NCBI GenBank assembly: GCA_002269645.1
Contig: NIVC01004549.1
Span: 1 to 42,289 of the forward strand
Origin: Macrostomum lignano
Lineage: Eukaryota
Direction: 5' to 3'
DNA: 42,289 nucleotides
The position numbers and the translations under genes are program-made. The notes beneath the pieces were generated by a model. It saw nothing but the letters and a program-made list of their open reading frames with translations. It was not told the origin of the DNA and ran no database searches. This document shows positions 2,095-37,696 of this stretch, one piece after another. Position 1 is the stretch's first letter, and each line of letters starts with the position of its first letter.

Positions 2095-5664
<3,570 letters not shown>

Positions 5665-9150: not shown

Positions 9151-9185
9151 GGCCAATTAATGCTACTCGGTTAGTTACTCGGTTA

Positions 9186-12589: not shown

Positions 12590-15565
<2,976 letters not shown>

Positions 15566-16114: not shown

Positions 16115-19623
<3,509 letters not shown>

Positions 19624-21131: not shown

Positions 21132-23408
21132 TTAACAGGTTAGCCAGAGCATAAAGTTTTTAAGCACTACAAAAAACTTTCCCGCAGTTTTTCCCTTTCC
21201 AGTAGCCCTTTGAAACTGCCATTTTTCCTGAAGACTCGATTTCAGCCAACTGGGAAGATCTGCTTCCTTCAGTCTCTTGAATATTTCCAGAGTCTGCTCT
21301 AGATTCGAAGAATAAAATGCGGCGACCAGCAGCTCCTTCTCATCCGAGTCCTCTCTCTCAGCCACATCCCGGATCCAGTCCTGGGCGCGCGCTTCTGGAT
21401 CAGTCCGCAGCTCGAGCCGCAAAGCCCATAGCAGAGCGTCAAAGTTCATATAGAAAATAGTTACTGCCTGACAACTGAAGGGGAAAGCACTCCCTCAGAG
21501 CTCCTGTCAGGAATTCGAGTTTCGGTCGCTGGTCGAACTTAAAGCAGAACTTCCACGCCGAGTCGCAGCTCCTCAGATGCCGCATCACGAACTCCACTGT
21601 CGCTTCAGTCGCCGACTTCCCACGAGACCAAGCAATGCCTCTGCTCACCGAGTGACCTGAGTACAAGCTCACGACTCTCTCTGCAGTTCCTCGGTAGCCG
21701 AACTTCAGGCAAGCTAGCGCTCTGAGAGCCTCCCGAGCTGAGAGGGCACAGTCTGGCAGTCTGGCTATCAGCTCTGTAAGCGATTCCTGAGATCGCGGGC
21801 TGCAGTCACTGTGTGAGAGACGAACAAGACACTCTCTCACCACGTCGTAGATCTGATAGTACTCGAGAGCACTGGACTTCGTGATGGGCATCGACCTCAG
21901 ATCCGGCAGAATTTGGAACGGGTGGAAGTAGAATGTGCCTGAGTCGCTCACAGGTCTGAGACTACCGATGAACTGCTGAAGAAGTTGTGGCAGCCGATCT
22001 ACTACTGTTCTCAGTGTGCTCATGATGCCATCCAAATACTGGTCCACTCTCTCCTTGTCTGCACCCTTGAGGTAGATGGCCGCATCGCTGAGAAAGAAAT
22101 GATTCATGATAACCCGAGATTGGTCAGGTGTGTCAGGTGTTTGTCTGTCATGCTCTCGGCTCTTCTCCACACAGTCGAGCAGCATCTGCAGCGACTGTCT
22201 CGTGAGGCTCACGAGGTTCTCCTTCTTCCATTGCTCGACCGGCGTCTCGTCCACCATTCGGAAAGTGACGGTCTTCACGTGGTAGGACTTCAAGCCTTGC
22301 TGATTGAAACCATCCTTGTGACAGATTAACTTCTTGACCAGGTATTTGAGTGTGACAAAAAGTTGACCTTGCAGGGTAGTAAGACTTCGCAGCATCCGGT
22401 TCTCCAGGAAGGTGGTGCTCACGCGGAGCTCTTCGCCCCCTCGGTCAGGAGAGGCTGCGTGCACCACGTGGCAGGGCAATGAAGCCGAGGTGAGAACCTT
22501 CCGAAGGGCCTCCAGCACCGGATGGGGGATGTTCGAGACGCGGTTTGGCAGCAGCGGCGCGATGGGTGGGTAGCGACAGAGACGGCCTGCTGAGACATTG
22601 TCCAGCGCTGGTCTCAGCGTGAATCCGGGTACCGCATCGGCAGGATTGGAGGCTGTAAAAGCGATTCGGTTCCCGGTTGGGCAATAAACAACTTTAAGTC
22701 TGTGGAGTGATATTTTGGACTGATTTGGAAGATTAAAATTCAAATATAATTGTTGCTCATATTTATTACCTACTCAAAAAGACACATATAAATGCATGTT
22801 GCCAATTTCTTTTCTGTGGGTGTTAGCCATTTAATACTCAGCAGGTTCGATACATCCCTAAATGCTGTGCGTTGCAATTACTTCAGACTGAAGGATAGTA
22901 GTCAGGTTCTTGTTTAGATCTACTTACTGAGTTCAGAAATCGTGCATACAGCGATATTTTCTACACCAGTGCTTTACACACGAAAAGCAAACATCTGCAC
23001 TGCCAGAATCTCCAGCAATCGGGTAAAAGAACTAACAGACCATCTCACTTCCGAGAGAACTCACCGAATCCTGAGCACTGAATGTGCCCATTCACCAACT
23101 CGTGCTGCGCCGGAGCTCCATCGCACTCGCACAGGCCTCTCTGGTGGTATTCTCGGCCGGGAATCAAATACATCACATCAATGTCGGAATTGACGTCAGT
23201 TCTGCCGTCCAGTGTCGTCAGACTGTTGCCCCAGCCTTCTGAGTAGCTGCCGACGACAAAAAAGTCATCGTCGTTCATTCGACTTCTTAGAATCTGCTGC
23301 AGGGCATCGGCAGCCGCGCTCTGCAATGCGGCTCGGGATTCGGTGAAGCCTGACTGCTCCCGTGCTGAGTGCAGCTGCTCGCTCAGCTCTGAGTCACTGG
23401 GACTGAAT
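21132..23408 (-). pseudogene. Mab21/cGAS-like receptor (cGLR) nucleotidyltransferase part of an ANK-cGLR gene; exons 23408-23065 and 22652-~21132, frameshift near 21455
   Basis: VVGSYSEG...SDIDVM NTase motif, EELRVSTTFLE, LKYLVK, LKSYHVKT and MNHFF Mab21 motifs. Splice sites join in frame. A 1-bp shift breaks ...NYFYMNFDALLW. Confidence 0.8.
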
Positions 23409-24339
23409 CTAAAATGTAAGTTGTTGGTAAAAAACGGCACTTCTAGAAGGGTTAATTGACTAATTTGTGTAGCATGGGGCAGAACTCCTGAACAGATAAA
23501 AATGTTAATGCAGAAACTTTTTGAATTGCATGGGGAGTCGGAAAAGGTTGACTTAGCGAGGATTTTAGATTTCAGATTCAGCCCTGGAGGTGGGGTGGGG
23601 CAGGCCAGAGATATGGTGGCGGCGGGTCAGAGGTGGGTGGGGCAGGCCGGAGATAGTCCATAGGGTTAAGCGTATAAGACTTGGGGCTGAGTGTCCATGA
23701 CCCAAGGGCAAATGTCTATAGGTTGAGTGTCCAGAGCGAATGTCTACAGGATTTGTTACTGAAAAATGGTCCAATTCCATGACTGCCCATGTATCGAGTG
23801 TCTTTTTATATGGTTGGGAGAGAACTTTTTTGGTCCAACCGTCTTGGTCTGAGTGGTCTAAGTAAAGTAATGTAATGAAAGCAACCTGATTGGCTGACAA
23901 TGCCCAATTATTGGGAATGGCGGCAGATGGGGTCCTGAATTCCAAATTTACATTGCATTCACTCCCGCAAACTCTGTGAACAGTTGCACAGCCTCCGAGC
24001 CATCTCCAGTGTGCCCACCCCACCTCCAGGTCCTCCTCCTCGCTGGTTGGCAAAACAGCGAAGTAGGGCAGTTAGAACTTTTCCTACTAGTGCGCTGAAA
24101 TCAGCAATGTCAAACCCATCTTGACACAGCGTTCTGCAAGCTCTCGTTTTCGACACTGTTTGTATGCTGTTCCTACTTTCAAAACTGCCTCTTAAGGCGG
24201 CTTGCTGGTAAAATTGCACAACTTTTTCAAACGCGTAAAAATCTAACCGAAAAATTATTTTAAACAACATTTTACTAGCGATGCAAATAAAAATCGCCTA
24301 TACAGCACTCTAAACGAGAAGAACGCCACATACTCGCAC

Positions 24340-24787
24340 CTCTCAAGTTCCGACTGATCGATTGGTTCTTCCAAAGCGGATGATTTAGCCACTTCTTGAC
24401 TATCAATATATTCTATTTTGGCGTCAGATACTGCTTTGATAAGTGACTTCACAATTTGATGGTGATCATTCATTAATGCAGCGTCCAGAGGTGACTCGCC
24501 AGTGTTTCGTTGGAGATTGACGTCAGCTAGTGCTTTGATGAGTAAGTTCACAACTTGTTGTTGGTGACCAAAATGTGACGCAATGTAGAGAGGTGACGAA
24601 CCATGAACATTTTCTTGAAGATTAAGGTCAGCTTCTGCTTTGATGAGCGAGTTCACAACTTTGTGGTAGCCATTCTGTGATGCAATGTACAGAGGTGAAC
24701 TACCTTGAATTTGCTGAAGATTGAGGTCAGCCTTTGCTTTTATGAGTGAGCTCACAACTTGGTGGTGACATTCTGTGATGCAATGTA
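24340..24787 (-). pseudogene. 3' part of the ankyrin-repeat exon (repeats ~8-11), interrupted by the Polinton
   Basis: SPLYIASQNG...VVNSLIKA repeats. Donor AG|GTGCGA at 24340/24339 is phase-compatible with the acceptor at 23408. A 1-bp deletion lies near 24770. Confidence 0.8.
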
Positions 24788-25720
24788 ACTACGTAATGTG
24801 CAGTTAGAGCAGGGTTTTGGAGGTGAGGTGGGTGTCAGAGCCAATGCAAATTCAGCGCCTATCTAAATGCACTAGACCTCTTCTAATTGGTCCAGAGTCA
24901 TTATGTGAGATATGCATGTAACTCTCATGTAAATCTAATTGTACATGTAATCAGTGTACACTGTGTCGTACAGAAGCGAGGACCAGTAGTACGCATAATT
25001 AGCGCTCCGCCGTTGTTGTACGCACAAGCGCGCCCAACCCCGCAGCATTGGTGTACGCAGAATTAACTGTCCATATTAACTGTCCATATACCAAAATTGG
25101 CAGAATGGTAGCGCCCACCCACCCCATAACTGTCCATATTACTTGTCCATATATACACCCAAAATTGGCAGAATTGTAGCACCCACCCACCCCATAACTA
25201 TGCATATTTACTGTCCATATATGCACCCAAAATTGGCAGAATTGTAGCACCCACCCACCCCATAACTATCCATATTTACTGTCCATATATGCACCCAAAA
25301 TTGGCAGAATTGTAGCACCCACCCATCCCATAACTATCCATATTTACTGTCCATATATACATCCAAAATTGGCAGAATTGTAGCGCGCCCACCCACCCCA
25401 TAACTGTCCATATTTACTGTCTATATATACATCCAAAATTGGCAGAATTGTAGCGCGCCCACCCACCCCATAACTGTCCATATTTACTGTCCATATATAC
25501 ATCCAAAATTGGCAGAATTGTAGCGCGCCCACCCACCCCATAACTGTCCATATTTACTGTCCATATATACATCCAAAATTGGCAGAATTGTAGCGCCCAC
25601 CCACCCCATAACTGTACGCGCAGAATTAGCATCCAAGAAGATATTCTGTTGCCCCTACAAAATTGGCGGCCCCCGCGCGCGCGCATGATGAGTCAGCCGC
25701 TGTAAATCGCTGCTGTCCAC
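24788..25720 (+). repeat. Left TIR (933 bp) with 8 units of a 68-70-bp tandem repeat (~25066-25615)
   Basis: Reverse complement of 35520-36788 apart from array copy number; unit AAATTGGCAGAATTGTAGC..CCCACCCACCCCATAACT..CCATATTTACTGTCCATATAT. Confidence 0.95.
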
Positions 25721-25889
25721 ACTGTTATATCCACTCCTTCCATATTTCAACCCCTCTAGAATTCAGCCCTCGTCGACTGCACTCCGAGACAATTACGTCA
25801 TCCTCAACCCCTCTCACCCAGAGTCAAATAAGTTTTCAAAAGGCGTATATTTACACAAAAAGCCGGCCGAGCTTTGATACGTATACGAT

Positions 25890-26519
25890 TTATTTAGCAT
25901 ACACAATTGGGTGACGACCCAAAACGTTTGAATAATAGCGAGCAGGAGCATTTTGCAAACAGTTTACAATCAAGTATGAGTAGGGGTCGCGAGTAGCATC
26001 CTCATACGTTTTGACAAAACTTTTTGGATTAGTGGGGACAAGCTGCCTTGCAATATGAGACACTGTGCTGGCATCCCGTACATTGCGGAATAAAACGAGG
26101 TAGTTCGAATTGAGCGACTGAGTTCGGTGCTCCTTACCCTTTGCAAACAGGTTTTGCACAAGATACCAAAGTCGGTACCCGACGTGGGAGACTTTGCGCG
26201 TGAAAAAAGTTGTAAAAGCGCCACTCTTTTCCATGGCATGCATTTGGTCGTCGACGACAAGCAGAATATTTGGTTCAGGGACATATTGTTCAGGGTCAAA
26301 TGTACACGAACGAAAATTTACAGGGTACGGCAATTCAAACAGTTCAGGATCCGGATAGTGGCCAAACCAGTCTACGCGAATCGGCTTCGGATCTTGAAAA
26401 AATTCTTGCCTCAATAGGTTTTTCACAAGTGTGGTCTTGCCGCTTTGAGCCACCCCAGCAAAAATTGCCGACGTTTTGGGGGCAAATTTTAAAGAGCCGG
26501 GGTCTATTGTTTGATACAT
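25890..26519 (-). CDS. DNA packaging ATPase (FtsK/A32-like), 209 aa from MYQT
   Basis: Walker A GVAQSGKT, Walker B LLVVDD, FTRKVSH / QN / RNVRD motifs typical of Polinton ATPases. Confidence 0.9.
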   Translation of the reverse strand: MYQTIDPGSLKFAPKTSAIFAGVAQSGKTTLVKNLLRQEFFQDPKPIRVDWFGHYPDPELFELPYPVNFRSCTFDPEQYVPEPNILLVVDDQMHAMEKSGAFTTFFTRKVSHVGYRLWYLVQNLFAKGKEHRTQSLNSNYLVLFRNVRDASTVSHIARQLVPTNPKSFVKTYEDATRDPYSYLIVNCLQNAPARYYSNVLGRHPIVYAK

Positions 26520-26542
26520 TTTGATAGGCCGCCCAATCATAT

Positions 26543-26992
26543 TTATGGATGATGCTGCTTTATTTGTAGACAGTGATTCTGCACCATCAAGTCGTTCTCA
26601 TAAAGATTTTTGCTATAACAGTCGCGCAATATTTTTTCAATCGGCAGACACTCCAGAAAGTGTTTTTCAGCCACAAATATTACATGAGCCCCGCAGGTCA
26701 CACTTAGCTGATGCTGTACAGGATGCCGGTTCATGGCCACCTCCACAGGGACATACTTTGCGATCCACAACTTTAATAAATCTGGCACAGGATCAATACA
26801 CAAGGGGTCAAAAAATGTCACGCTCTCATCGGCATGAAGACAAATCAAAGCCCAGTGAGTGCCTGGTAGATTGCCAGTGTCAAAGTTAATCACGTATGCA
26901 GCAGGATAAACAGGCTGCGGAATCCTGTCAACTGGTGTTACTCGAACAGGGACAGGCAGTATTAGACGTTCTAATATATCTAGACTATTCAT
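26543..26992 (-). CDS. Adenovirus-like cysteine maturation protease, 149 aa
   Basis: YVINFD...GTHW (His), FFDP (Asp), QHQLSVTCG (Gln/Cys). Confidence 0.92.
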   Translation of the reverse strand: MNSLDILERLILPVPVRVTPVDRIPQPVYPAAYVINFDTGNLPGTHWALICLHADESVTFFDPLCIDPVPDLLKLWIAKYVPVEVAMNRHPVQHQLSVTCGAHVIFVAEKHFLECLPIEKILRDCYSKNLYENDLMVQNHCLQIKQHHP

Positions 26993-27042
26993 ATCGGCAT
27001 GAATATGGCCGTTATTCGGGAATAAAAAAGAGTTGTTTGTTT

Positions 27043-28326
27043 CTACACGTAGTCTAGAATAACCTGACGACCGCGAGTGATTTGCACAGTATTGTCAAAG
27101 TAGCCAAACACCAACACGTTGATTCCTGCGGCCAAGGCAGCAGAAAACTTTATTTGTAGCGTCAGATTCCCTCGCTCGCGAGGCATGCTATGCCCACCCA
27201 GCTCCATGTCGGGCATGAGATTCCAGGCGAAGAAGCAGTAGCCAGCTCCATAGTCGGAATATGATACGTCAATATCCAGGTCCCGATTCATCTTTCCTAG
27301 GCTTTTTAGTAGCATAGCATACTCGCGAGCATAGTTATGAACACCAAATCGAGGAGTAAACGGTTGTCCACACAGACTGACTCCGTCCTTATACAGAGCC
27401 ACACTGTCGGCTCCAAATGGCTCAAAATTAAACGGGTTATGTGTAGCCACACCGTTGTAAGCGCCGCTGTTTACCATGCCAACAACCACAAGTTTAGGCT
27501 TTTGTTCAGGAAATATATTGTTGATTGACATGTCCCGAACACCACCAGCCACTGAAGTATTGTGCACAACAAGTCGCTCAATCGGATAGATTGCATTCTG
27601 TTTGCCTAGTTGTTCTTCAATCTCCAATGCCAGTTGAGGGTTTGCCTTGACGCGGCGCACATGTAGTTTGGCACTCTCGAGTACCAGCCGCGCCTCAACC
27701 CCGTCCGCGTGGTTTTTCAAAACGAAGCCGGAATTGTGCATAGTTAGCGTAATTACCATATCAGTGTATGGCAACAGCATTCGGTCGTTGGTAACAAAAA
27801 ATTCTAAACTAAGAGGTCCATAAAGGTGAAAGGTGCGTGAGTTTGCCGCCATCGCCTTGCGGGCTACAAAACCAGGATTTCCAACCACAGCCATTTGACC
27901 TCCAGCGTCCTTTGCGTAGCCCATCATCCTCAGTTGGTTGGTTTTTGAATCGTGTCCGTAATTCAAACACGTGCGAATATAGGCCTTGTAAGCGTGGTTG
28001 TTATTGCTCGACTCTACGTGGGTCCCGTTGATTGTCAACGTGACGTTTTTAAACATGCTTTCAAGGACGTAATTGACCGGCGCAACATTCGAATCAGCAG
28101 CAAGATTTGTGCCATTAGATTGCCTAACGCGGGCCTTAATCTCGAGGTCAATGTCGTTAAGATCGATAAACGTCTCACCACCAACAATCCTAAATTCGAC
28201 CACGCTGGCATTTTCAACACTGGCAACAGGGTGAACTTCTTCAGTGGTGGCGTTAATTGCAGCAATTTGGTGTGCGCGAGGAGCAAATAGCTCGAATTCC
28301 GACTTTGTACACAGGCACTCAGTCAT
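27043..28326 (-). CDS. Major capsid protein (double jelly-roll, hexon-like), 427 aa
   Basis: KSEFELF start, EFRI...FIDL, VNYVLESMFK, YKAYI, NPFNFEPF, YCFFAWNL and GNLTLQIKF are characteristic Polinton MCP motifs. Confidence 0.9.
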   Translation of the reverse strand: MTECLCTKSEFELFAPRAHQIAAINATTEEVHPVASVENASVVEFRIVGGETFIDLNDIDLEIKARVRQSNGTNLAADSNVAPVNYVLESMFKNVTLTINGTHVESSNNNHAYKAYIRTCLNYGHDSKTNQLRMMGYAKDAGGQMAVVGNPGFVARKAMAANSRTFHLYGPLSLEFFVTNDRMLLPYTDMVITLTMHNSGFVLKNHADGVEARLVLESAKLHVRRVKANPQLALEIEEQLGKQNAIYPIERLVVHNTSVAGGVRDMSINNIFPEQKPKLVVVGMVNSGAYNGVATHNPFNFEPFGADSVALYKDGVSLCGQPFTPRFGVHNYAREYAMLLKSLGKMNRDLDIDVSYSDYGAGYCFFAWNLMPDMELGGHSMPRERGNLTLQIKFSAALAAGINVLVFGYFDNTVQITRGRQVILDYV

Positions 28327-28357
28327 TTTTCTTTCAACAGCGGCTAAGAGTGGTGCT

Positions 28358-28747
28358 CTAATAGACAGATCGATTATTGACGCGGGTTTTTTTATCTATA
28401 TTTATAGAGTCAAAAATATCAGAATGTTGGAGTCTTTTTCTCGTTTTTTTGTTAGTCTTCTTTCTACGCCTTTGACCACCGCCGCTACCTCGTTGTGTGA
28501 CTGTGTCTTTGAAAGCATCTTTAGCTGCCCGGACAGAGTTGCGCAATGCCGCTTCTTTCAAGTTCCCGCCTTGATCGAGTGTGTCGCTAACTGTTGTAGC
28601 TAGGGCTCGTGTTCCGTGGCGAAGAATATTTTTGCCAAAACTCTTTAAAATTGGCAGGGCAAATCGGGCAATGCTGCCAAACAGTCCGTTGCCTCGCTGT
28701 GCACCGGAAAATACCGGTAAAGCTCCTCCGATCAAGATTGAAGGCAT
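28358..28747 (-). CDS. Basic virion core-like protein, 129 aa
   Basis: QRGNG and QRGSG motifs, LIGG protease-type site, amphipathic segment, R/K-rich C-terminus; lies between minor and major capsid genes. Confidence 0.7.
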   Translation of the reverse strand: MPSILIGGALPVFSGAQRGNGLFGSIARFALPILKSFGKNILRHGTRALATTVSDTLDQGGNLKEAALRNSVRAAKDAFKDTVTQRGSGGGQRRRKKTNKKTRKRLQHSDIFDSINIDKKTRVNNRSVY

Positions 28748-28791
28748 ATTGCTGATGAATTGTGGTCTTTTATTTGTGAAAACTTCTTTAT

Positions 28792-29946
28792 TTATAGCTT
28801 AATTTCACGAATGTTGATCGATAAAACAGTTTTACCTCGAAGAATCCGATCCATTAGCTTGCCCATATCGTCACAGATTTGCACCTCAATGGTTTTAAAT
28901 GGGTGCTTCACCAACGGTAAGTATGATGGATTGACAAACTCGTAGTACTCTCGTTCACCGTATACCTTTTCATTCAAAGGAATTGCACCAAGCAGGGGGA
29001 CTTTGACGTCTCCAACAATGGCAGAGTCGACAATGTTTGAATAGATGTACATAGTTTGTACACCATTTGTTAAATCGATTGGTCGTTTAGCGGTCTTTGG
29101 AGTTTCATTAAAAGAATCATCTTCACGAAAGCCGAGAATGGCAGCAAGCTCACCAATTTCAAATAAAATGTTTTCAATGGGTTTGTACTCACACCGGTTC
29201 AGAAAAGGGTTGTAGCTGAATGCATCCACTCTCGTTGCTGGACTTATTGGGAGCTTTGAAACGACGCTCCAAAGCGCTCCATTAACATAATTTAAGAGCT
29301 CATTGGGCGTGCGGTAGAATCCTTTAGCAATCCGCAGTGACGTTCTACTAGGCCAGACACTTTTTTCAAACGTTAGAGTCATGGGACTCTCTATGGAGGA
29401 GGATTCCAATTCTATAGCGAATACTAACGAATTTCTTGGGTTTAGTAAAAAACTCGTTCCTTCGATATTTGATTTATTTCCAGCGTCATCGACCTTTTTA
29501 AACATGCTGCGCACATTACTGGACAGCCTAATGTTCGTACCATACCATGATTTGTTCACAATCGAAATTTGGCCTTCCTGTGAACGCTCAATGCAAATCA
29601 TTGCATTATCGTCTTGCTCATATTTTAGAGCTGCAATGATTGCATCAACCACTTCGTTGGCTGTTGATAGCCCCGCGGGGAGAGAAGCCGACGCAAACTG
29701 CCTATACGTGGAGGCGGGTTTTTCTCTAACTTTAATGTCAATCACTTCATCCTCGGGAGCGTTGGTCAGGACATCAACCATTCGATTATCAGGGACGGTT
29801 TTGAATTCTTTACAAAAGTAGATCCGTTCGATGCAGACTTCATGATTCGGAAAGTGGAGGGTGTCGGGCAAATTAATGTTATAATGCGCTGAATTATTCT
29901 CAGGATAGTGCTTAACGCACGCATTGCTAGGTAGGAAAAGATGCAT
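28792..29946 (-). CDS. Minor capsid protein (penton-like), 384 aa from MHLFLPSN
   Basis: LFLPSN...YPENNS...INLP..L..EVCI N-terminus and MYIYSNIV...VGDVKVPLL...YLPL...IEVQICD C-terminus. Confidence 0.85.
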   Translation of the reverse strand: MHLFLPSNACVKHYPENNSAHYNINLPDTLHFPNHEVCIERIYFCKEFKTVPDNRMVDVLTNAPEDEVIDIKVREKPASTYRQFASASLPAGLSTANEVVDAIIAALKYEQDDNAMICIERSQEGQISIVNKSWYGTNIRLSSNVRSMFKKVDDAGNKSNIEGTSFLLNPRNSLVFAIELESSSIESPMTLTFEKSVWPSRTSLRIAKGFYRTPNELLNYVNGALWSVVSKLPISPATRVDAFSYNPFLNRCEYKPIENILFEIGELAAILGFREDDSFNETPKTAKRPIDLTNGVQTMYIYSNIVDSAIVGDVKVPLLGAIPLNEKVYGEREYYEFVNPSYLPLVKHPFKTIEVQICDDMGKLMDRILRGKTVLSINIREIKL

Positions 29947-29986
29947 TGTAATATACCACACGTTTCGACTGTGCGTGTGTGTGTGT

Positions 29987-31054
29987 TCATCCTTGTCTTA
30001 TATTTATAACTTCCTCAACTGGTACAAATGCATTGAACGACTCGGGATAGCCGCGCCAACTAACGAAATGATGAGCAACACCATTGATGACGACATTGCG
30101 ACGCAGAATTTTGTCTATAACAAAGCGGTCCGGTCGAACCGTCTTTGAAAGTTCATTATAGTAGAATCGACCCTCGATTTGTTCTCCAGATAGGTCGGAA
30201 ATGCGATAAAAATGAGGTGGTCCCGGGCATACTTGAGACACAACGTAAACTTCTTCGCTGTACATATCGTATGCTTCCTTGTCAAAGGCTCGACGAGATT
30301 TTGAAATTCTGACAAAGTCCCCTTTTTTGTAAACTGGTTCATCATATTCAGGATCCTGGTAGAGCTTTTCCCACAATTCTTTTTGGTTGTGCAGACCGAC
30401 ACTCGAAGGTTTCATATCAATAGTAGAGTGTACTGTGTTGTTGTAACTTTTAACCAATATTGGCAAATAGTCAATCCAGCGCCACGTGTTTTTGTGCTCA
30501 AAGTAGCGAGCTAAACGTTTTCGGAGAGTCCTAATCAACCTTTCAGCCATATTTGCCTTGTATACAGAGTTTGTGCTGTACATTTTGATACTGTTGGCTT
30601 TCAGTAAGTTCTGCATGCGATTGTTATAAAACTCGGTACCTCGATCAACGTGTAGATATAAAGGCTTAATAGGGAAGTCTTTGATCATGCTTTCAAAAGC
30701 CTTTGGAGTGTCGCTTTTCAATTTTATTGGCTGACAAAAAGCCAATTTACTAAGCACGTCAATTGCAACTAGAATATATCGATGACCATCATTCCATTGT
30801 TCGTATCGTGACATGTCCATCAAATCCGCTTGCACAGTTTCCATGAAGCCTCCTGACATTACTTTTCCGGTTCGGAATTTTCTTTTAACCCTCTTGTGCC
30901 GGGTGTAGCTCGATTGGGTCTTCAGCCATTCGTCGGTTTGGCGTCTCGTCAGGGAGGGGGCCAGCCGTTTGGCCTCCTGATATACACGGGCAGCATTTGT
31001 AAAAGCGGCGTCTCCCTGTTCGTACACTCTCCGAAGAGCGGTTTTCACCCTCAT
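29987..31054 (-). CDS. Retroviral-like DDE integrase with C-terminal chromodomain, 355 aa
   Basis: QADLMDM (D), HVDRGTEF (D), MAERLIRTL (E); chromodomain IDKILR...VSWRGYPESFNAFV. Confidence 0.95.
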   Translation of the reverse strand: MRVKTALRRVYEQGDAAFTNAARVYQEAKRLAPSLTRRQTDEWLKTQSSYTRHKRVKRKFRTGKVMSGGFMETVQADLMDMSRYEQWNDGHRYILVAIDVLSKLAFCQPIKLKSDTPKAFESMIKDFPIKPLYLHVDRGTEFYNNRMQNLLKANSIKMYSTNSVYKANMAERLIRTLRKRLARYFEHKNTWRWIDYLPILVKSYNNTVHSTIDMKPSSVGLHNQKELWEKLYQDPEYDEPVYKKGDFVRISKSRRAFDKEAYDMYSEEVYVVSQVCPGPPHFYRISDLSGEQIEGRFYYNELSKTVRPDRFVIDKILRRNVVINGVAHHFVSWRGYPESFNAFVPVEEVINIRQG

Positions 31055-31187
31055 TCGCAACTAGAGTCGATGCACAGCATGAGTAATTACACTTGAACTC
31101 CACAGACGGTTTGTCTGAGCAAAGCTTTGAAGTTACAGCTGCGGCACCCATGATCCAAAAACAGATTATAAATCATGAAAATGATTT

Positions 31188-31841
31188 CTATTTATAGTTT
31201 TTTAACGTCTCGTATTTTACTGCTGGTTTCTGCCGCCTCTTTGGTTCGCGAAGTTGGTATGAAGCATGCCTGTAGGCATCGCTGCCACGATCTTCAAATT
31301 TTTTAACTTCATTCAGGCCACTGGCTCGGTCTTTGTGGAAGTCGTTGTGGAAATCACTAGTTCCAATTGCTTGCTCGACTAAAAAATCGTCTCGATCAGG
31401 ATCCGTGCCGACTTCTTTTTTCACACTGACTTCTTCTTGTTGGCGTCGCCCTAGTAGAGCTTTTGCAATATCTGCCTCTTCAGCCAGGGCCCAAAAAGCG
31501 GTACTATATTTTGGGCTTGGGCGGTCGCGCCTTTCATTCGATGTAATCTTTTTCAGTAGATCGAAAATATTGCTTCCTGGCCAGGTTTTTCCATCAAATA
31601 CAATTTCCCACGACTTGTTGAACTCCAAATTCGGGTATCTTTCTGTCAACATGTCCCAAACTCGTTGTTGTCGTTCAGGAAAACGATTACTCTTCTTTTG
31701 CTTGATCTGACTTAGTTTATTTTGGAGTTGAGTGTTGTATTCAATGAGTTTTTCATATTCTGTTTTAGATGCAATTTCTCGGGGTGCGCCTTGACTCAGT
31801 CTATTAAATTCTTCTTCTGGCACAACAACGTATTTATTCAT
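31188..31841 (-). CDS. Conserved-type Polinton hypothetical protein, 217 aa from MNKYVVVPEEEF
   Basis: M.K.V.VP.E.F start seen in Maverick accessory proteins; ATG lies 1 nt after the corrected stop of the upstream gene. Confidence 0.6.
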   Translation of the reverse strand: MNKYVVVPEEEFNRLSQGAPREIASKTEYEKLIEYNTQLQNKLSQIKQKKSNRFPERQQRVWDMLTERYPNLEFNKSWEIVFDGKTWPGSNIFDLLKKITSNERRDRPSPKYSTAFWALAEEADIAKALLGRRQQEEVSVKKEVGTDPDRDDFLVEQAIGTSDFHNDFHKDRASGLNEVKKFEDRGSDAYRHASYQLREPKRRQKPAVKYETLKNYK

Positions 31842-31842
31842 T

Positions 31843-32198
31843 TTAGCGACCGAGTAGTCCACCAAACAGGCTTGATATTAGCGGTGCAGCAACAGATGCA
31901 AGGATGGGTAAAAACCACCGACTTGAGGGTTCGAGAGAAGCATATTCTTCTTCCTATTTATAGACAATTTTGTGTCTGCCAATTCACGCAACGATCTTCT
32001 GTATCGCTTTAATCGCAGATACTGTTTCGGAGAAAGATCAATATTTCCCCGGAGTACGTTGTGACTCAATTCACAGAGACAATGAATCAGTTCCTTGCCT
32101 GCACCTCGAATAATTGCCCGCCGAAGAGTGGGACGGGCTTTGGCGAGCTCTGCGAGCTCGCCGCGACAAGAACATAGTCTGGAGATTCCGTTTGTCAT
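31843..32198 (-). CDS. Polinton protein with predicted protease-released amphipathic C-terminal peptide; 1-bp frameshift at 31910-31914
   Basis: ELIHCLCELSHNVLRGNI...LKRYRRSLRELA core. Restoring one base in the A5 run gives QVGG-FLPILASVAAPLISSLFGGLLGR*. Confidence 0.7.
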
Positions 32199-32699
32199 TT
32201 TGTTTAGCACAAAGATGTTGGTTGCAGTGCATCGCAATTTATGCACAATATATTTATAGACAAGTTTCATAGCAGCATTACGATTGTACACCAATTTCAG
32301 TGCAGTGGTAATTGACAATAAAATTACACAACATTTGTGACAGCACTAAAAATCCAAAAGCGACTGTGAGGAGATGTTGCTAGGTGTCGAGACGGGTACA
32401 AAACAAACAATGGAGACACGTACCGATTGTGGAACTTCTTAAATTTTACAATGTCTGCTACGGCAGGATCTGTGTTATCAGAGGGTCATCAATCAAATAT
32501 TTTGACAGTTAAAAATCGAAGCGGGGTCAATCAACCCCGCATTACTTTTGTTGCTGCGTGGTGGAACGTGCCGAGTTGGGATTTTGTTGCTTAGGGGTGT
32601 GGCGATAAAATTGCTGCTGCCGCAGGGCAATAAATCAAAAGTTTTTGACAGTGGTCAGAAGCGGTCATTTTCATTGCAGATTTGGCTCAATTTCATTCA

Positions 32700-32971
32700 G
32701 CCAGCGGGGTGCAGCACGAGTGCATTCCGCAGGCCATCCCGAGCGTGGTTGAGCAAGTCAGGCATGGGTAAAACTACCGTGTTTGGGCGGTCCACGCCGC
32801 AGCAGCCGGAGACCACTGATGAGGTTGACACACCTGGTGTGTACTTGGAGATCTCGAACGCTGGACCCTCCTGGTGCGACTACCTCATCAGTGCTCTCCA
32901 GCTGGTGCAGCGGGGCCCGCACAAACACGGTAGTTGGTCTGTGGGATGCATTCGTGCTGCACCCCGCTGGC
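32700..32971 (-). ncRNA. Candidate long hairpin RNA locus (imperfect palindrome)
   Basis: Arms are reverse-complementary about GAGATCTC (32848-32855); a CTATAAATA box lies 60 bp upstream on the minus strand. Confidence 0.45.
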
Positions 32972-33111
32972 ATGGGTGAGCTTGAAAGATGTTTGTTGCA
33001 GTGTACTGCAATTTGTGCATGATATATTTTATTTATAGACAAGTTTCATAGCAGCTTGTACGTACATACAAATTTTGTTAAAACAGTAAAGTTACGCAAT
33101 AGCTATATGGA

Positions 33112-33591
33112 TTAGACATACAAAACGCTAGTCACATGATCGTACATTTGACAGAGCTCTTTAAAGTTTCGTATACCAAGGAAAACAAGGCGACCATTCT
33201 TTCCGCATAATAAACATTTAGCATTGCGAAATGGAGACTTTATTACTATTCCATTGAAAACTTCGCACTCCCACTTCACCCATTGGGACCCTGAGTATGC
33301 AATTTGGAAAAAATTTGGCCATCTGTCTACTTCAGCGCGGTAAGTACTAGTGGTAACAACAACAGAAATTGGTTTACATTGAGGAAAAAGACGCAAAACT
33401 TGGTTGACTGAGCGACAACCGAATACAATTGCAGACAAAGAACGCTGAAAAAAGTTTATTGTACACTTTCCTATCCTCAAATTGATAAGAGCTCTTGGCC
33501 GGCGAAATGTCCGTGCGCTCGCCCAGTCCAAGTCAGGCATGCAGCTCCATTTCGCGCAAAACACTCGGTTCACGCACTCGACGTTCTGCAA
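33112..33591 (-). CDS. Divergent TATA-binding protein (TBP)-like protein
   Basis: LQNV; [15 protein letters not shown]...[19 protein letters not shown]...[15 protein letters not shown] resemble both TBP repeats. The frame starts at TTG; the first ATG is at 33540. Confidence 0.7.
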   Translation of the reverse strand: [159 protein letters not shown]

Positions 33592-34346
33592 GTAGATTTT
33601 TCGGCAGTTTTCTTTACTTTCGTATCCTTCTTGGGGGCTTTCGGTCGCTTCTTTGATTCGTTGGCTGCTACTACTTTCGATTGATGCTGTCGCTTTCTGG
33701 CCTGATTTTTAGGCACCTTTGGCTGCTTCTCCTTGACAAGCTTTGATGGTTTTTTTGCTTTCTTGCTTACTTTCTTGGAGCCTACCTTGATTTTTGGAGG
33801 TGGCGTCCAATAGCAACGGTCGAATGCCTGTTTGGCTTCTTCGACAAACTGTAGCTGTTGAATTTTTGGCATTGCGGTCAAAACAGCGCCTCGAATCACG
33901 GCCGTGTCGAGAGTAAACAGAATCCTGTAATAGCCGCTCTTGTTTTTGTAATCCTCTACAGGCAGTCCGTTTTGGTCGTACATTTTAAAGTCGTGAGCCA
34001 GCCCAAACGCTGCACTGTCGCCTCCAAACGCTGCACTGTCGCCTCCAAACGCTGGGTTGTAGCCCAGAAGAGCTAGACTTTCACTGGAAAGGTGCTCCGC
34101 CACAGTGTTGAAAGTGTAGGGTATGCAGCTCTCAATGTGTTTTTGTGCAATGATGATGAATTCGCGACCTTCGTTGTCAGTACGCACACCTTTGACAATC
34201 AAAACAGGGACCGCATTGGCCAAGTAGAGAGGCCCCTGTTCGTCATATTCAATGTCAAACGTTTCAACCCCGTTGAAGCTCGGACCTCGCGGTTTGAGTG
34301 CCAGCAGCTCTCGCTTGACGCAGTTGAAGTCTTGCACTGTCTCCAT
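33570..34346 (-). CDS. Hypothetical protein, 258 aa: possible OB-fold SSB plus Lys-rich tail
   Basis: Intact ORF with a TATA box 62 bp upstream; beta-rich YRILFTLD...PKIQQLQF end; tandem AAFGGDS duplication; K/P-rich C-terminal ~75 aa. Confidence 0.55.
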   Translation of the reverse strand: METVQDFNCVKRELLALKPRGPSFNGVETFDIEYDEQGPLYLANAVPVLIVKGVRTDNEGREFIIIAQKHIESCIPYTFNTVAEHLSSESLALLGYNPAFGGDSAAFGGDSAAFGLAHDFKMYDQNGLPVEDYKNKSGYYRILFTLDTAVIRGAVLTAMPKIQQLQFVEEAKQAFDRCYWTPPPKIKVGSKKVSKKAKKPSKLVKEKQPKVPKNQARKRQHQSKVVAANESKKRPKAPKKDTKVKKTAEKSTCRTSSA

Positions 34347-34407
34347 GTCTCTTGTCTGTTTAGAAAAATTTGCAGGTACGGGAGCTTGCAGATGCTCCGG
34401 GCTGGTG

Positions 34408-34415
34408 CTTATATA
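34408..34415 (-). promoter_or_regulatory. TATA box TATATAAG (class 1) upstream of ORF258
   Basis: GGGTATATAAGCACCAGCCC, duplicated at 35067-35074. Confidence 0.6.
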
Positions 34416-34440
34416 CCCGAGAGTCTCAATAAGTTTTGTT

Positions 34441-34968
34441 TTAATTACACGATAACGAGCTTTTTACGGTGTTGTCGTTGTCGAGGATTCCAGAAAAAAT
34501 GAACCTTTTGTTCCTATTTTCGGGTGCTGGCGTTGGAGGCGTGCTGAAATCCTTGCTCCAAGTTGATGGTAGTTCAAGCTTTGGCGGCCTGTTTCTCTTG
34601 TGCTTTGGCAGCCAAATCTTTTGTTGCTCCTCCCACGACGGATTATACAGATCTTGATGGTTCCGAAAACGTATTTTTTGGCGATGCTCCTCACTTAGTA
34701 TCGGAGCCAGTAATCTCTCCATTCGTGCTAAATCAGCTTTGAACCTCATTTTGTCCCGTAGTTGCTCATTTATCCTGGCTGCTGCGTAGTCTTGGCTGTC
34801 GTAGGGACCTTGATCAATTTCCTCGACCTTGGCATTGAAGGTGACTAATCGCTCAGAAATCGGTTTGCTGTGGCAAATGCACAACCAGTCCGCAGATTTT
34901 TTCAACGTCTTATATTCGTCTTTTTCCTCGTTCGATAATAGAGGGTAGTCTCTGGAAATCCAGCTCAT
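34441..34968 (-). CDS. Hypothetical protein, 175 aa
   Basis: Intact ATG-TAA ORF with a TATA box upstream; a decayed paralogous copy lies at 35100-35270. Confidence 0.55.
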   Translation of the reverse strand: MSWISRDYPLLSNEEKDEYKTLKKSADWLCICHSKPISERLVTFNAKVEEIDQGPYDSQDYAAARINEQLRDKMRFKADLARMERLLAPILSEEHRQKIRFRNHQDLYNPSWEEQQKIWLPKHKRNRPPKLELPSTWSKDFSTPPTPAPENRNKRFIFSGILDNDNTVKSSLSCN

Positions 34969-35023
34969 TTCTTGTCAAACACTGCGGGATGTTATTTGAG
35001 CTTAGAAAACTGCTGAGAAGCCG

Positions 35024-35270
35024 AGAAAAGTTTGCAGGTACGGGGGCTTGGTGCTCTGGGCTGGTGCTTATATACCCGAGAGTCTCAATAAGTTTTGTTT
35101 TAATTACACGATAACAAGCTTTTTACGGAGTTGTCGTTATCGAGGATTCCAGTAAAATGAACATTTTGTACCTATTTTTGGTACTGGCGTTGGAAGCGTG
35201 TTGAAATCCTTGCTCCAAGTTGTTGGCAGTTCATGCTTTGGTAACCAAAATTGCTTGTCAAACACTGCGT
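35024..35270 (-). pseudogene. Internally deleted duplicate of the ORF175 cassette
   Basis: 35024-35241 matches 34362-34584; encodes WLPKH...ELPTTWSKDF; CGCAGTGTTTGACAAG is shared with the ORF175 leader. Confidence 0.7.
35067..35074 (-). promoter_or_regulatory. TATA box TATATAAG (class 1) upstream of ORF175
   Basis: Second copy within a ~220-bp direct repeat. Confidence 0.6.
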
Positions 35271-35519
35271 TTTCCACATGATTTTTAATTGAACTTGGTG
35301 AATTTAGAAAACGGCTGAGAATCCGAATTTTCTTTATTTATGGTTTGCTGTCTGACAAAATTGACCTGGCATCTTATTAAACGAGAATATTTCATGCATA
35401 GAATTTAGTGTTTTTAGACCTTGATGACGTGTCTGGCTATAAATTTAGCCTTGTGTCTCGACCGGGTTGTTGCGTAACCCTGCTGCAGGTAGCTATAGCG
35501 AGCCGCGCAGGGCAGAGGG

Positions 35520-36788
35520 GTGGACAGCAGCGATTTACAGCGGCTGACTCATCATGCGCGCGCGCGGGGGCCGCCAATTTTGTAGGGGCAACAGAATATC
35601 TTCTTGGATGCTAATTCTGCGCGTACAGTTATGGGGTGGGTGGGCGCTACAATTCTGCCAATTTTGGATGTATATATGGACAGTAAATATGGACAGTTAT
35701 GGGGTGGGTGGGCGCGCTACAATTCTGCCAATTTTGGATGTATATATGGACAGTAAATATGGACAGTTATGGGGTGGGTGGGCGCGCTACAATTCTGCCA
35801 ATTTTGGATGTATATATGGACAGTAAATATGGATAGTTATGGGATGGGTGGGTGCTACAATTCTGCCAATTTTGGGTGCATATATGGACAGTAAATATGG
35901 ATAGTTATGGGGTGGGTGGGTGCTACAATTCTGCCAATTTTGGGTGCATATATGGACAGTAAATATGCATAGTTATGGGGTGGGTGGGTGCTACAATTCT
36001 GCCAATTTTGGGTGTATATATGGACAAGTAATATGGACAGTTATGGGGTGGGTGGGCGCTACCATTCTGCCAATTTTGGTATATGGACAGTTAATATGGA
36101 CAGTTATGGGTGGGTGGGCGCGCTACAATTCTGCCAATTTTGGATGTATATATGGACAGTAAATATGGACAGTTATGGGGTGGGTGGGCGCGCTACAATT
36201 CTGCCAATTTTGGATGTATATATAGACAGTAAATATGGACAGTTATGGGGTGGGTGGGCGCTACAATTCTGCCAATTTTGGATGTATATATGGACAGTAA
36301 ATATGGACAGTTATGGGGTGGGTGGGTGCTACAATTCTGCCAATTTTGGGTGCATATATGGACAGTAAATATGGATAGTTATGGGGTGGGTGGGTGCTAC
36401 AATTCTGCCAATTTTGGGTGCATATATGGACAAGTAATATAGACAGTTATGGGGTGGGTGGGCGCTACCATTCTGCCAATTTTGGTATATGGACAGTTAA
36501 TATGGACAGTTAATTCTGCGTACACCAATGCTGCGGGGTTGGGCGCGCTTCTGCGTACAACAACGGCGGAGCGCTAATTATGCGTACTACTGGTCCTCGC
36601 TTCTGTACGACACAGTGTACACTGATTACATGTACAATTAGATTTACATGAGAGTTACATGCATATCTCACATAATGACTCTGGACCAATTAGAAGAGGT
36701 CTAGTGCATTTAGATAGGCGCTGAATTTGCATTGGCTCTGACACCCACCTCACCTCCAAAACCCTGCTCTAACTGCACATTACGTAGT
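35520..36788 (-). repeat. Right TIR (1269 bp) with 13 units of the 68-70-bp repeat
   Basis: Reverse complement of the left TIR plus five extra units. Confidence 0.95.
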
Positions 36789-37696
36789 AATGTAGAGAGG
36801 TGACTCGCCAGTGTTTCGTTGATGATTGACGTCAGCTTGTGCTTTGATGAGAGAGGTCACAACTCGGAGGTGACCATTCTCTGAGGCAATGTTGAGAGGT
36901 GAGTAGCCATTGACTTCTTGAAGATTGACGTCAGCTTGTGCTTTGATGAGTGAGTTTACAACTTGGTGGTGACCATTCTGTGATGCAATGTAGAGAGGTA
37001 TCTCACCAGTGTTTCGTTGAAGATTAACATCAGCTTGTGCTTTGATGAGTGAGTTCACAACTTGGTGGTGACCATTCTGTGATGCAATTAATGTACAGAG
37101 GTGAGCAGCCATCGTCTTCTTGAAGGCTGACGTCAGCTTGTACTTTGATGAGTGAGTTCACAACTTGATGGAGACCATTCTCAGATGCAATGTAGAGAGG
37201 TGACTCGCCAGTGTTTATTTGTTGATTGATGTCAGCTTGTGCTTTAATGAGTAAGTTCACAACTTGGTGGTGACCATTCTGTGTTGCAATGTAGAGAGGT
37301 GAACCGCCTTGGATTTGTTGAAGATTGACGTCAGCTTGTGCTTTGATGAGTGAGGTCACAACTTGATGATGACCAAAAAGTGATGCAATGTAGAGAGGTG
37401 TCTCGCCAGTATTTCGTTGAAGATTGACGTCAGCTTGGGCTTGAATGAAGATCCCAACAATTTTTACTTTTCCCAATTCACATGCAAAATGAAGCGGTGA
37501 CATTGATGCTGATGAGCCTATCAACGTTAGAAGCTTTCTGCAGGTATCGTGAAATTTTTGTTGCATTTTCGAACATAATGGCTTCCAGGATCTCTTGTTC
37601 AGTCACATCGAGGCTCTCGCTTTGGCTTTCGGACCTGCCGATGGTCTGCATTAGAACTGCTGCAATCGCTGTCAGGGTTCTTAAAAGAGCTTCCAT
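36789..37696 (-). pseudogene. 5' part of the ANK-cGLR gene (start and ankyrin repeats 1-8), frameshifts near 37515 and 37088
   Basis: MEALL... start, then MSPLHFACELG and 33-aa SPLYIASxNGHHQVVxSLIKAQADVN repeats. The sequence continues seamlessly at 24787 once the element is removed. Confidence 0.8.

What the first reader, a model, noticed from the sequence alone, without database searches (positions are those of the whole stretch)
24788..36788. Virion-competent-looking Polinton with no DNA polymerase: candidate satellite or helper-dependent lineage
Both TIRs and the TSD are intact, and integrase, MCP, mCP, protease, ATPase and core ORFs are uninterrupted. No ORF between the TIRs is large enough for, or resembles, pPolB (usually around 1000 aa). 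All genes are on one strand. The outer TIRs differ at only one position I noticed (25025 vs 36551), so the insertion looks recent. The element may have transposed in this 12-kb form using pPolB in trans or another replication route.
Basis: partly seen in the sequence, partly recalled or inferred. Interest (0 to 1): 0.8.

Follow-up and report, generated by a model that had tools for sequence, protein, structure and literature searches.

The report
Polinton virus lacking its DNA polymerase
A 12-kb virus-like Polinton element, recently inserted into an animal genome (probably a flatworm's), keeps its capsid, packaging and integrase genes plus an unusual single-stranded-DNA-binding gene and a TATA-binding-protein-like gene, but has no DNA polymerase, so it most likely copies itself with a relative's polymerase, as has been suggested for some butterfly Polintons.

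Summary
The core observation holds. A 12,001-bp Polinton (24788-36788) has a genuine 6-bp TSD, long TIRs, and full-length integrase, MCP, mCP, protease and ATPase frames. It has no polymerase and no room for one: the largest unassigned gaps are 841 and 551 bp. Two corrections: the TIRs are unequal (933 vs 1,269 bp; the right end carries an extra, 3%-divergent repeat block), and one small core gene (PM position) has a frame break, so 'virion-competent' is not shown. New here: the accessory arm encodes a T7-gp2.5/giant-virus-type ssDNA-binding protein and a divergent TATA-binding-protein homologue, apparently paired in relatives too; one relative is a Macrostomum lignano gene model. Best reading (0.45): a defective derivative that lost its replicase before this insertion and is copied in trans by a pPolB-bearing sibling. 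Post-insertion deletion (0.25), a wholly replicase-free lineage (0.15) and misassembly (0.1) remain open, because neither the host genome nor sibling copies could be examined. polB-less amplified polintons are already reported in butterflies, so this is a new variant of a known kind.

The parts
24782..24787 (.). Left target-site duplication AATGTA
   Evidence: matches the single 6-mer of each ankyrin repeat unit
24788..25720 (+). Left TIR, 933 bp: 305-bp unique outer part, 8-unit 68-70-bp array (about 25064-25615), 146-bp inner part
25890..26540 (-). A32/FtsK-like packaging ATPase, 216 aa, intact
   Evidence: 32% identical to the L001 ATPase, E 3e-20; P-loop and Walker B-like motifs read from the sequence (motif patterns recalled)
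26543..26992 (-). Adenain-like maturation protease, 149 aa, intact
   Evidence: E 1e-10 to the L001 protease, which weakly matches Peptidase_C5 (E 0.015); His, Asp, Gln and Cys present in the expected order (pattern recalled)
27043..28326 (-). Major capsid protein (PY), 427 aa, intact
   Evidence: 15 homologues, best 78-80% identical, named ones 'F54H12.2-like' in animal genomes; E 3e-61 to the L001 MCP, which weakly matches Pfam DJR-like (E 0.006); fold not modelled
28358..28747 (-). PW-position basic core-like protein, 129 aa
   Evidence: E 1e-7 to the L001 ORF in the same position; name by position after PMC8097293 section 7
28792..29946 (-). Minor capsid protein (penton), 384 aa
   Evidence: E 1e-11 and 9e-6 to the L001 ORF 7289-8119; name by position next to the integrase; fold not tested
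29987..31054 (-). RVE integrase with C-terminal chromodomain, 355 aa, D-D-E residues present
   Evidence: Pfam rve E 1.7e-7, Chromo E 0.015; 39% identical to the L001 integrase over 319 aa
31188..31841 (-). PZ-position conserved ORF, 217 aa
   Evidence: weak match to the syntenic L001 151-aa ORF (E 0.003 pairwise); name by position
31843..32198 (-). PM-position gene with a frame break near 31,914 in a short run of T; the hydrophobic C-terminal stretch seen in the L001 homologue lies in another frame
   Evidence: body E 1e-16 to L001 5408-5740; tail score 37, reached by 2 of 5,000 shuffles and 1 of 266 windows of the element; frames
32271..33111 (.). 841-bp non-coding spacer, most likely slot of the lost replicase; holds an imperfect inverted repeat (about 32687-32985) between two copies of a TATA-bearing motif (32211-32276, 32985-33055)
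   Evidence: no Rfam match; slot inferred from gene order in L001
33112..33594 (-). Divergent TATA-binding-protein homologue, about 160 aa (first ATG at 33540; homology extends upstream of it)
   Evidence: 4 homologues at 61-68%; 4 of 5 alignment members match Pfam TBP, best E 2.3e-5, the window's own does not; NCBIfam TBP E 0.026; TBP chains lead the fold searches of a low-confidence model
33570..34346 (-). T7 gp2.5/giant-virus-type OB-fold ssDNA-binding protein, 258 aa; folded domain intact, tail in another frame than in relatives
   Evidence: model pLDDT 79.7; ASFV CP312R Z 10.7 (161 aligned, rmsd 4.0) and T7 gp2.5 Z 8.0; Enc34 SSB E 9e-4; 113 BFVD matches at E<=0.001, the listed ones from giant viruses
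34441..34968 (-). 175-aa ORF of unknown function
   Evidence: no significant match in Pfam, PHROGs, NCBIfam or PDB sequences; homologue search and fold not run
35024..35241 (-). Decayed second copy of the 3' end of ORF175 plus the downstream TATA motif (201/218 identical to 34362-34584)
35520..36788 (-). Right TIR, 1,269 bp, 13-unit array: inner 7 units like the left array, outer 6 units a divergent variant
36789..36794 (.). Right target-site duplication AATGTA
36789..37602 (-). Host ankyrin-repeat exon, upstream half (downstream half at 24255-24787), split by the insertion
   Evidence: Pfam Ank E 1e-18

Best explanation
A defective, non-autonomous derivative of an animal Polinton (Polintoviricetes-type morphogenetic module plus RVE integrase). 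It lost its replicase gene, most likely a pPolB upstream of the PM-PZ genes, before it integrated here. It keeps the cis-acting ends (TIRs) and is copied in trans when a replicase-bearing relative is active in the same nucleus; its own integrase then inserts the linear copy with a 6-bp TSD. Its SSB would coat displaced strands and its TBP-like protein may act on its TATA promoters. SHOWN: anatomy, absence of a replicase, integrase-type TSD, young age of the ends, SSB fold, TBP homology. INFERRED: loss before insertion, existence of a helper, any activity of the proteins, packaging.
For: No replicase and no room for one. The size, 12.0 kb, is below the 12.7-24.6 kb range (mean 16.9) of intact vertebrate Mavericks, a deficit of about one polymerase gene. 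An SSB, a replication accessory, is retained. The ends are young (1 mismatch in 451 unique bp; upper 95% bound 1.2%), whereas the rearrangements of the accessory arm are older (201/218, 59/66, and 99/120 between the hairpin arms), so that arm was remodelled before this insertion. The right TIR is a mosaic of two array variants (272/272 inner, 394/406 outer) while TSD and host flank stay continuous, which fits recombination with a sibling genome before integration. Precedent: polB-less polintons that amplified beside polB-bearing siblings in Pieris mannii (10.1101/2025.02.07.637071 section 13).
Against: Only one copy was seen; no helper was found, and no neighbourhood could be read for the close relatives. 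The old duplications date the remodelling of the arm, not the loss of the polymerase. The frame break in the PM-position gene and the altered SSB tail fit decay or assembly error as well. The mosaic TIR can equally be an assembly chimera; such artefacts are documented for multi-copy viral insertions (PMC10120064 passages). No polymerase remnant marks the deletion point, and the control polymerase is distant and lacks its N-terminus.
Confidence: 0.45

Rival explanations
1. One-off decay: a complete Polinton inserted here and later lost its polymerase by a local deletion; the 12-kb form never moved.
For: Most endogenous Mavericks are degraded (96% of vertebrate loci; PMC8097293 passage). The PM frame break and changed SSB tail. 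Direct repeats flank the spacer and could promote deletion. Partial Polintons occur in C. elegans (10.1101/2024.01.15.575659 passages).
Against: The insertion is very young by its ends. The loss leaves no detectable remnant and spares the neighbouring genes and their TATA/polyA-like motifs. The flanking direct repeats are both still present, whereas a deletion between them would leave one.
Confidence: 0.25
2. A whole lineage without a replicase: this clade (marked by the SSB-TBP pair and 78-80% identical MCPs) uses the replisome of a co-infecting large DNA virus or of the host, like a virophage or satellite.
For: The SSB is of the giant-virus/T7 family (PMC11253617 passage). The MCP shows no accelerated change (78-80% to relatives that are 80-83% alike). 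PLV groups with no detectable replication gene exist (VC40; 10.64898/2026.06.19.733378 passage).
Against: Long TIRs with a short terminal repeat suit protein priming (recalled), which needs a pPolB. The spacer looks like a scar. No contig of a relative could be read. Animal Group 1 Mavericks mostly carry pPolB, and Group 2 swap it for another replicase rather than drop it.
Confidence: 0.15
3. Assembly artefact: near-identical copies were collapsed or mis-joined and the polymerase segment dropped.
For: Mosaic right TIR; frame break in a homopolymer; two further frame shifts in the host ankyrin exon; documented artefacts in multi-copy viral insertions.
Against: TSD and ankyrin array are continuous across the site. 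The five main genes show no break. A 3.5-kb microsatellite and a 20-unit minisatellite in the window show 0% indels, which suggests accurate long reads.
Confidence: 0.1
4. Cut-and-paste movement by the integrase alone, without self-synthesis, like Ginger-type elements.
For: Intact DDE integrase and TSD. Unequal TIRs suggest the ends were not recently homogenised.
Against: It does not explain retention of capsid, protease, ATPase and SSB frames; no excision footprint could be tested.
Confidence: 0.05

Closest known systems
   Same: TIRs, 6-bp TSD, RVE integrase, MCP, mCP, protease, ATPase, PW-, PM- and PZ-position genes; PW-MCP-protease order as in L001 and L002
   Different: No pPolB; 12.0 kb; ATPase at the far end; termini ACTACG rather than (AGT)2, (AG)3 or (AC)3A; SSB and TBP-like genes
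polB-lacking polintons of Pieris mannii and the LTR-replaced group (bioRxiv 10.1101/2025.02.07.637071, section 13)
   Same: TIR-flanked, polB missing, core genes kept, thought to have stayed mobile, mechanism open
   Different: There the loss goes with LINE or Gypsy cargo, and several copies and polB-bearing siblings are seen; here no cargo, one copy, another host phylum
Replicase-less or helper-dependent PLVs and virophages (VC40 in 10.64898/2026.06.19.733378; polymerase-less protist EVEs in PMC10120064)
   Same: Morphogenetic module without a detectable polymerase
   Different: Protist hosts and other capsid lineages; VC40 is not described with RVE integrase or protease
T7 gp2.5-like SSBs of Nucleocytoviricota and gamadviruses (ASFV CP312R, Mimivirus R506, ranavirus P31K; PMC11253617)
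   Same: Same OB fold as ORF258
   Different: Here in an animal Polinton; 7-15% identity only

Membership tests
Polinton/Maverick (autonomous) | [quoted passage not shown] | tested here: not met
   No space and no hit. The Pfam scan is not relied on because it also missed the control polymerase.
Polinton/Maverick (autonomous) | RVE integrase | tested here: met
Polinton/Maverick (autonomous) | Long TIRs and 5-8-bp TSD | tested here: met
   size ranges
Polinton/Maverick (autonomous) | MCP, mCP, ATPase, cysteine protease | tested here: met
   Sequence homology to named animal proteins and to L001/L002; capsid folds not modelled
Polinton/Maverick (autonomous) | Terminal motif (AGT)2, (AG)3 or (AC)3A | tested here: not met
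   ACTACG against the vertebrate motifs; invertebrate motifs not surveyed
Group 2 Maverick-Polintons with a substituted replicase | SF1/SF3 helicase, alone or fused to a polymerase or AEP | tested here: not met
   No unassigned ORF above 217 aa; 0 of 86 frames gave a credible helicase or primase match
Group 1 versus Group 2 Maverick-Polintons | MCP/ATPase clade | not tested
Non-autonomous Polinton family (trans-mobilised) | Several copies with the same deletion and different TSDs | not testable with these tools
   Only window.fa was laid; no second copy in the window
Non-autonomous Polinton family (trans-mobilised) | Autonomous partner with the same termini | not testable with these tools
   The mosaic right TIR hints at siblings; their gene content is unknown
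Virophage-like satellite of a large DNA virus | Replication depends on a co-infecting large virus | not testable with these tools
   Only indirect: giant-virus-type SSB
T7 gp2.5-like SSB (ORF258) | OB fold of the gp2.5/CP312R/Enc34 type | tested here: met
   DNA binding itself not tested
TBP family (ORF160) | Homology to both TBP repeats | tested here: inconclusive
   Relatives match PF00352; the window's copy is sub-threshold; model pLDDT 52, best Z 5.8

The most novel reading that the evidence does not exclude
An animal (flatworm) Polinton lineage that has given up its replicase altogether and lives as an integrating, capsid-forming satellite of a large DNA virus or of the host replisome, equipped with a giant-virus-type SSB and its own TATA-binding protein: a virophage-like lifestyle in a metazoan Polinton.
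Probability: 0.15. Interest if true: 0.82.

Novelty: new variant of a known kind. Interest (0 to 1): 0.5.

Why it matters
How Polintons replicate and move has been inferred mostly from gene content. A young, cleanly bounded, polymerase-less copy with capsid and integrase genes makes trans-complementation testable by a simple copy census, probably in a laboratory-tractable flatworm genus. The SSB-TBP pair points to gene flow between giant viruses and animal Polintons, and to a Polinton that may carry its own basal transcription factor. If siblings simply carry pPolB and this copy is unique, the locus is an ordinary deletion derivative, and only the accessory genes stay of interest.

Tried and rejected
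Pfam scan of 86 stop-to-stop frames found no polymerase, but Pfam, PHROGs, NCBIfam and PDB sequence searches also failed to name the control polymerase of L001, so that scan is weak evidence; the L001 frame is called pPolB from recalled motifs and a Vsr-like insertion (compare). ESM Atlas gave no usable hit for ORF258 or ORF142. A GTDB scan with the SSB alignment found no relative among 71 candidate stretches; the MCP scan gave 2 of 96, both about 30% identical and so not siblings. Two of the six representative-library hits for the SSB profile (P0057, P0058) were repeat proteins and were dropped. Rfam: no match in the element. Hairpin as a selected RNA structure: it folds strongly (z -12.7), but its 21 mismatches show no clear G-U bias (7 plus, 3 minus, 11 other), and no TSD or second copy supports a MITE; read as a decaying inverted duplication. 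The out-of-frame PM tail is hydrophobic, but its helical moment is low (0.11 against 0.28 in L001), so 'amphipathic' is not claimed. MCP profile and ORF175 against PDB sequences: nothing significant. Literature: Macrostomum with polinton or maverick gave 1 and 2 papers, unrelated by title and start of abstract; Macrostomum, flatworm and TBP were absent from the one held supplement of PMC8502044; the 2006 Polinton paper is not held.
Full report
Boundaries. The element runs from 24788 to 36788 (12,001 bp), begins ACTACG and ends CGTAGT, and is flanked by AATGTA on both sides. It sits in a 99-bp tandem array that encodes ankyrin repeats. Each array unit carries one such 6-mer at this register, so the second copy is a true target-site duplication. 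The flanks are eukaryotic host DNA; by eye they include alcohol dehydrogenase-like and P450-like frames, and a Mab-21 domain matches Pfam at E 1.3e-5.

Terminal repeats. The left TIR is 933 bp and the right 1,269 bp. One mismatch in 451 bp gives an upper 95% bound of 1.2%, so the insertion is young. The arrays differ: 8 units on the left and 13 on the right. The inner right block repeats the left array (272/272 over its first four units, one 70-bp unit fewer). The outer right block of 406 bp is a different shuffle of the same variants (394/406) and ends in a copy of the pre-array junction. I infer an out-of-register exchange with a sibling array. Because the TSD and host flank are continuous, it happened before integration, by gene conversion, or in the assembler.

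Gene content. Eleven ORFs, all on the minus strand, cover 7,779 of the 9,799 bp between the TIRs. A GTDB scan recovered two Polintons lying in bacterial-symbiont assemblies (L001, L002), which served as comparators. Seven L001 ORFs match the element at E<=1.1e-7 (ATPase, PM-position gene, mCP, integrase, PW-position gene, MCP, protease), and an eighth matches weakly. The MCP has 15 homologues, three of them 78-80% identical and of the same length. The integrase matches Pfam rve and Chromo. The names PM, PZ and PW are assigned by position after PMC8097293 section 7.

No polymerase. The 1,008-aa L001 polymerase frame gave no tblastn hit better than E 1.0 in the window and no phmmer hit better than E 9.5 among 483 six-frame segments. 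That frame is cut at its N-terminus and is distant, so small remnants or a lone terminal-protein domain are not excluded. Its identity as pPolB rests on recalled motifs; the libraries did not name it, which also makes the negative Pfam scan of 86 frames weak. The strong argument is space: the largest gaps are 841 and 551 bp and the largest unassigned ORF is 217 aa, too small for pPolB or for the helicase fusions that replace it in Group 2 elements. In L001 the polymerase lies upstream of ATPase-PM-PZ on the same strand, so the 841-bp spacer upstream of PM is the likeliest slot. At 12.0 kb the element is just under the 12.7-24.6 kb range of intact vertebrate Mavericks.

Accessory arm. ORF258 has six homologues at 55-64%, the best a Macrostomum lignano gene model, which suggests a flatworm host; this is not established. 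Its N-terminal 188 residues fold with pLDDT 79.7 (two of five models confident) and match ssDNA-binding proteins: ASFV CP312R Z 10.7, T7 gp2.5 Z 8.0, Enc34 SSB Z 6.6. In Foldseek the first eleven rows are these chains and two related phage proteins, and 113 viral models match at E<=0.001, the listed ones from giant viruses. The next ORF has four homologues at 61-68%; all four match Pfam TBP (best E 2.3e-5), while the window's copy does not and reaches only E 0.026 on an NCBIfam TBP model. TBP chains lead the fold searches of a poor model (pLDDT 52). A 'TBP' label appears in figure legends for MELD viruses (figures not seen), so TBP-like genes are not unheard of in this virus group. I found no paper on an SSB in an animal Polinton in one search (15 of 421 papers listed). 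ORF175 remains unexplained.

Signs of remodelling and damage. The arm holds a decayed duplicate of the end of ORF175 (201/218), a duplicated TATA-bearing motif (59/66) and an imperfect 300-bp inverted repeat (99/120 matched, plus a 36-base insertion). All are far more diverged than the TIRs, so they predate the insertion; they do not date the loss of the polymerase. The PM-position gene has a frame break near 31,914 in a short run of T: the hydrophobic tail present in the L001 homologue lies in another frame (2 of 5,000 shuffles and 1 of 266 windows reach the score). PMC8502044 section 8 describes membrane-active proteins in these modules; that this gene is one of them is my inference. The SSB tail also leaves the frame used by relatives, after the folded domain. 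These may be real or assembly errors: long repeats in the window show no indels, but multi-copy viral insertions are error-prone. The host ankyrin exon has two further frame shifts and was probably already a pseudogene.

Mechanism. The best-supported model is a defective genome copied in trans: intact ends serve as origins for a sibling's pPolB, and the element's integrase inserts the product (0.45). Post-insertion deletion (0.25), a replicase-free lineage dependent on a large virus or the host (0.15), misassembly (0.1) and cut-and-paste (0.05) follow. None can be closed without the genome and reads.

Comparison with what is known. bioRxiv 10.1101/2025.02.07.637071 (passages and sections 12-13 read) reports polB-lacking polintons that amplified in Pieris mannii beside polB-bearing siblings, and a second group with polB replaced by an LTR element; its extended data were not seen. 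Replication modules are mosaic and separable in this virus group (10.64898/2026.10.13.758929: abstract, section 13, first part of section 10; 10.64898/2026.06.19.733378: passages, sections 5 and 9), and polymerase-less elements are noted in protists (PMC10120064 passages). Also seen as passages only: PMC11161782, 10.1101/2023.08.22.554363, 10.1101/697771, PMC3014272, 10.1101/2024.01.15.575659, PMC11131425, PMC4028283, PMC11253617; PMC8097293 and PMC8502044 as passages plus one section each, and a term search of the one held supplement of the latter. Two of these searches selected Polintons by requiring pPolB, so they would not count elements like this one. bioRxiv supplements could not be seen and may list replicase-less animal elements. 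The element works like a non-autonomous Polinton, fails the pPolB test for an autonomous one, and cannot yet be filed as a member of a mobile non-autonomous family.

Verdict. A real, young, polymerase-less Polinton with an unusual SSB-TBP pair: a new variant of a known kind, interest 0.5.

Noticed in passing
window 21439-24787 and 36789-37602 (-): The interrupted host locus joins ankyrin repeats to a downstream Mab-21/cGAS-like nucleotidyltransferase region (Mab-21_C E 1.3e-5), a possible innate-immune receptor gene; the ankyrin exon has two frame shifts besides the insertion.
   Followed up: partly
window 32687-32985: Imperfect 300-bp inverted repeat directly downstream of a TATA-bearing motif; if transcribed it would form a long hairpin RNA (z -12.7), a possible siRNA source. 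No Rfam match.
   Followed up: partly
window 33540-33594 (-): Homology of the TBP-like gene extends upstream of its first ATG and overlaps the SSB tail; a TTG codon or a splice acceptor could supply the start.
   Followed up: partly
window 34003-34054: 21-bp tandem duplication adds seven residues inside the SSB domain, absent from the aligned relatives.
   Followed up: no
window 16115-19623 and 3978-5396: 3.5-kb (TAAC)n microsatellite and a 72-bp minisatellite of about 20 units with long open frames.
   Followed up: no
window 2736-3896 (+), 7434-9156 (-), 12799-15482: Alcohol dehydrogenase-like and cytochrome P450-like host frames, and fragments that look like non-LTR retrotransposon remains (identified by eye).
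   Followed up: no
L001 1-13262; L002 100-3989: Two GTDB bacterial assemblies (a Hormoscilla MAG and the Solemya velum gill symbiont) contain animal-type Polinton DNA, probably host contamination; L001 also has an IAP-like ORF (by eye) and a Vsr-like insertion in its polymerase.
   Followed up: partly
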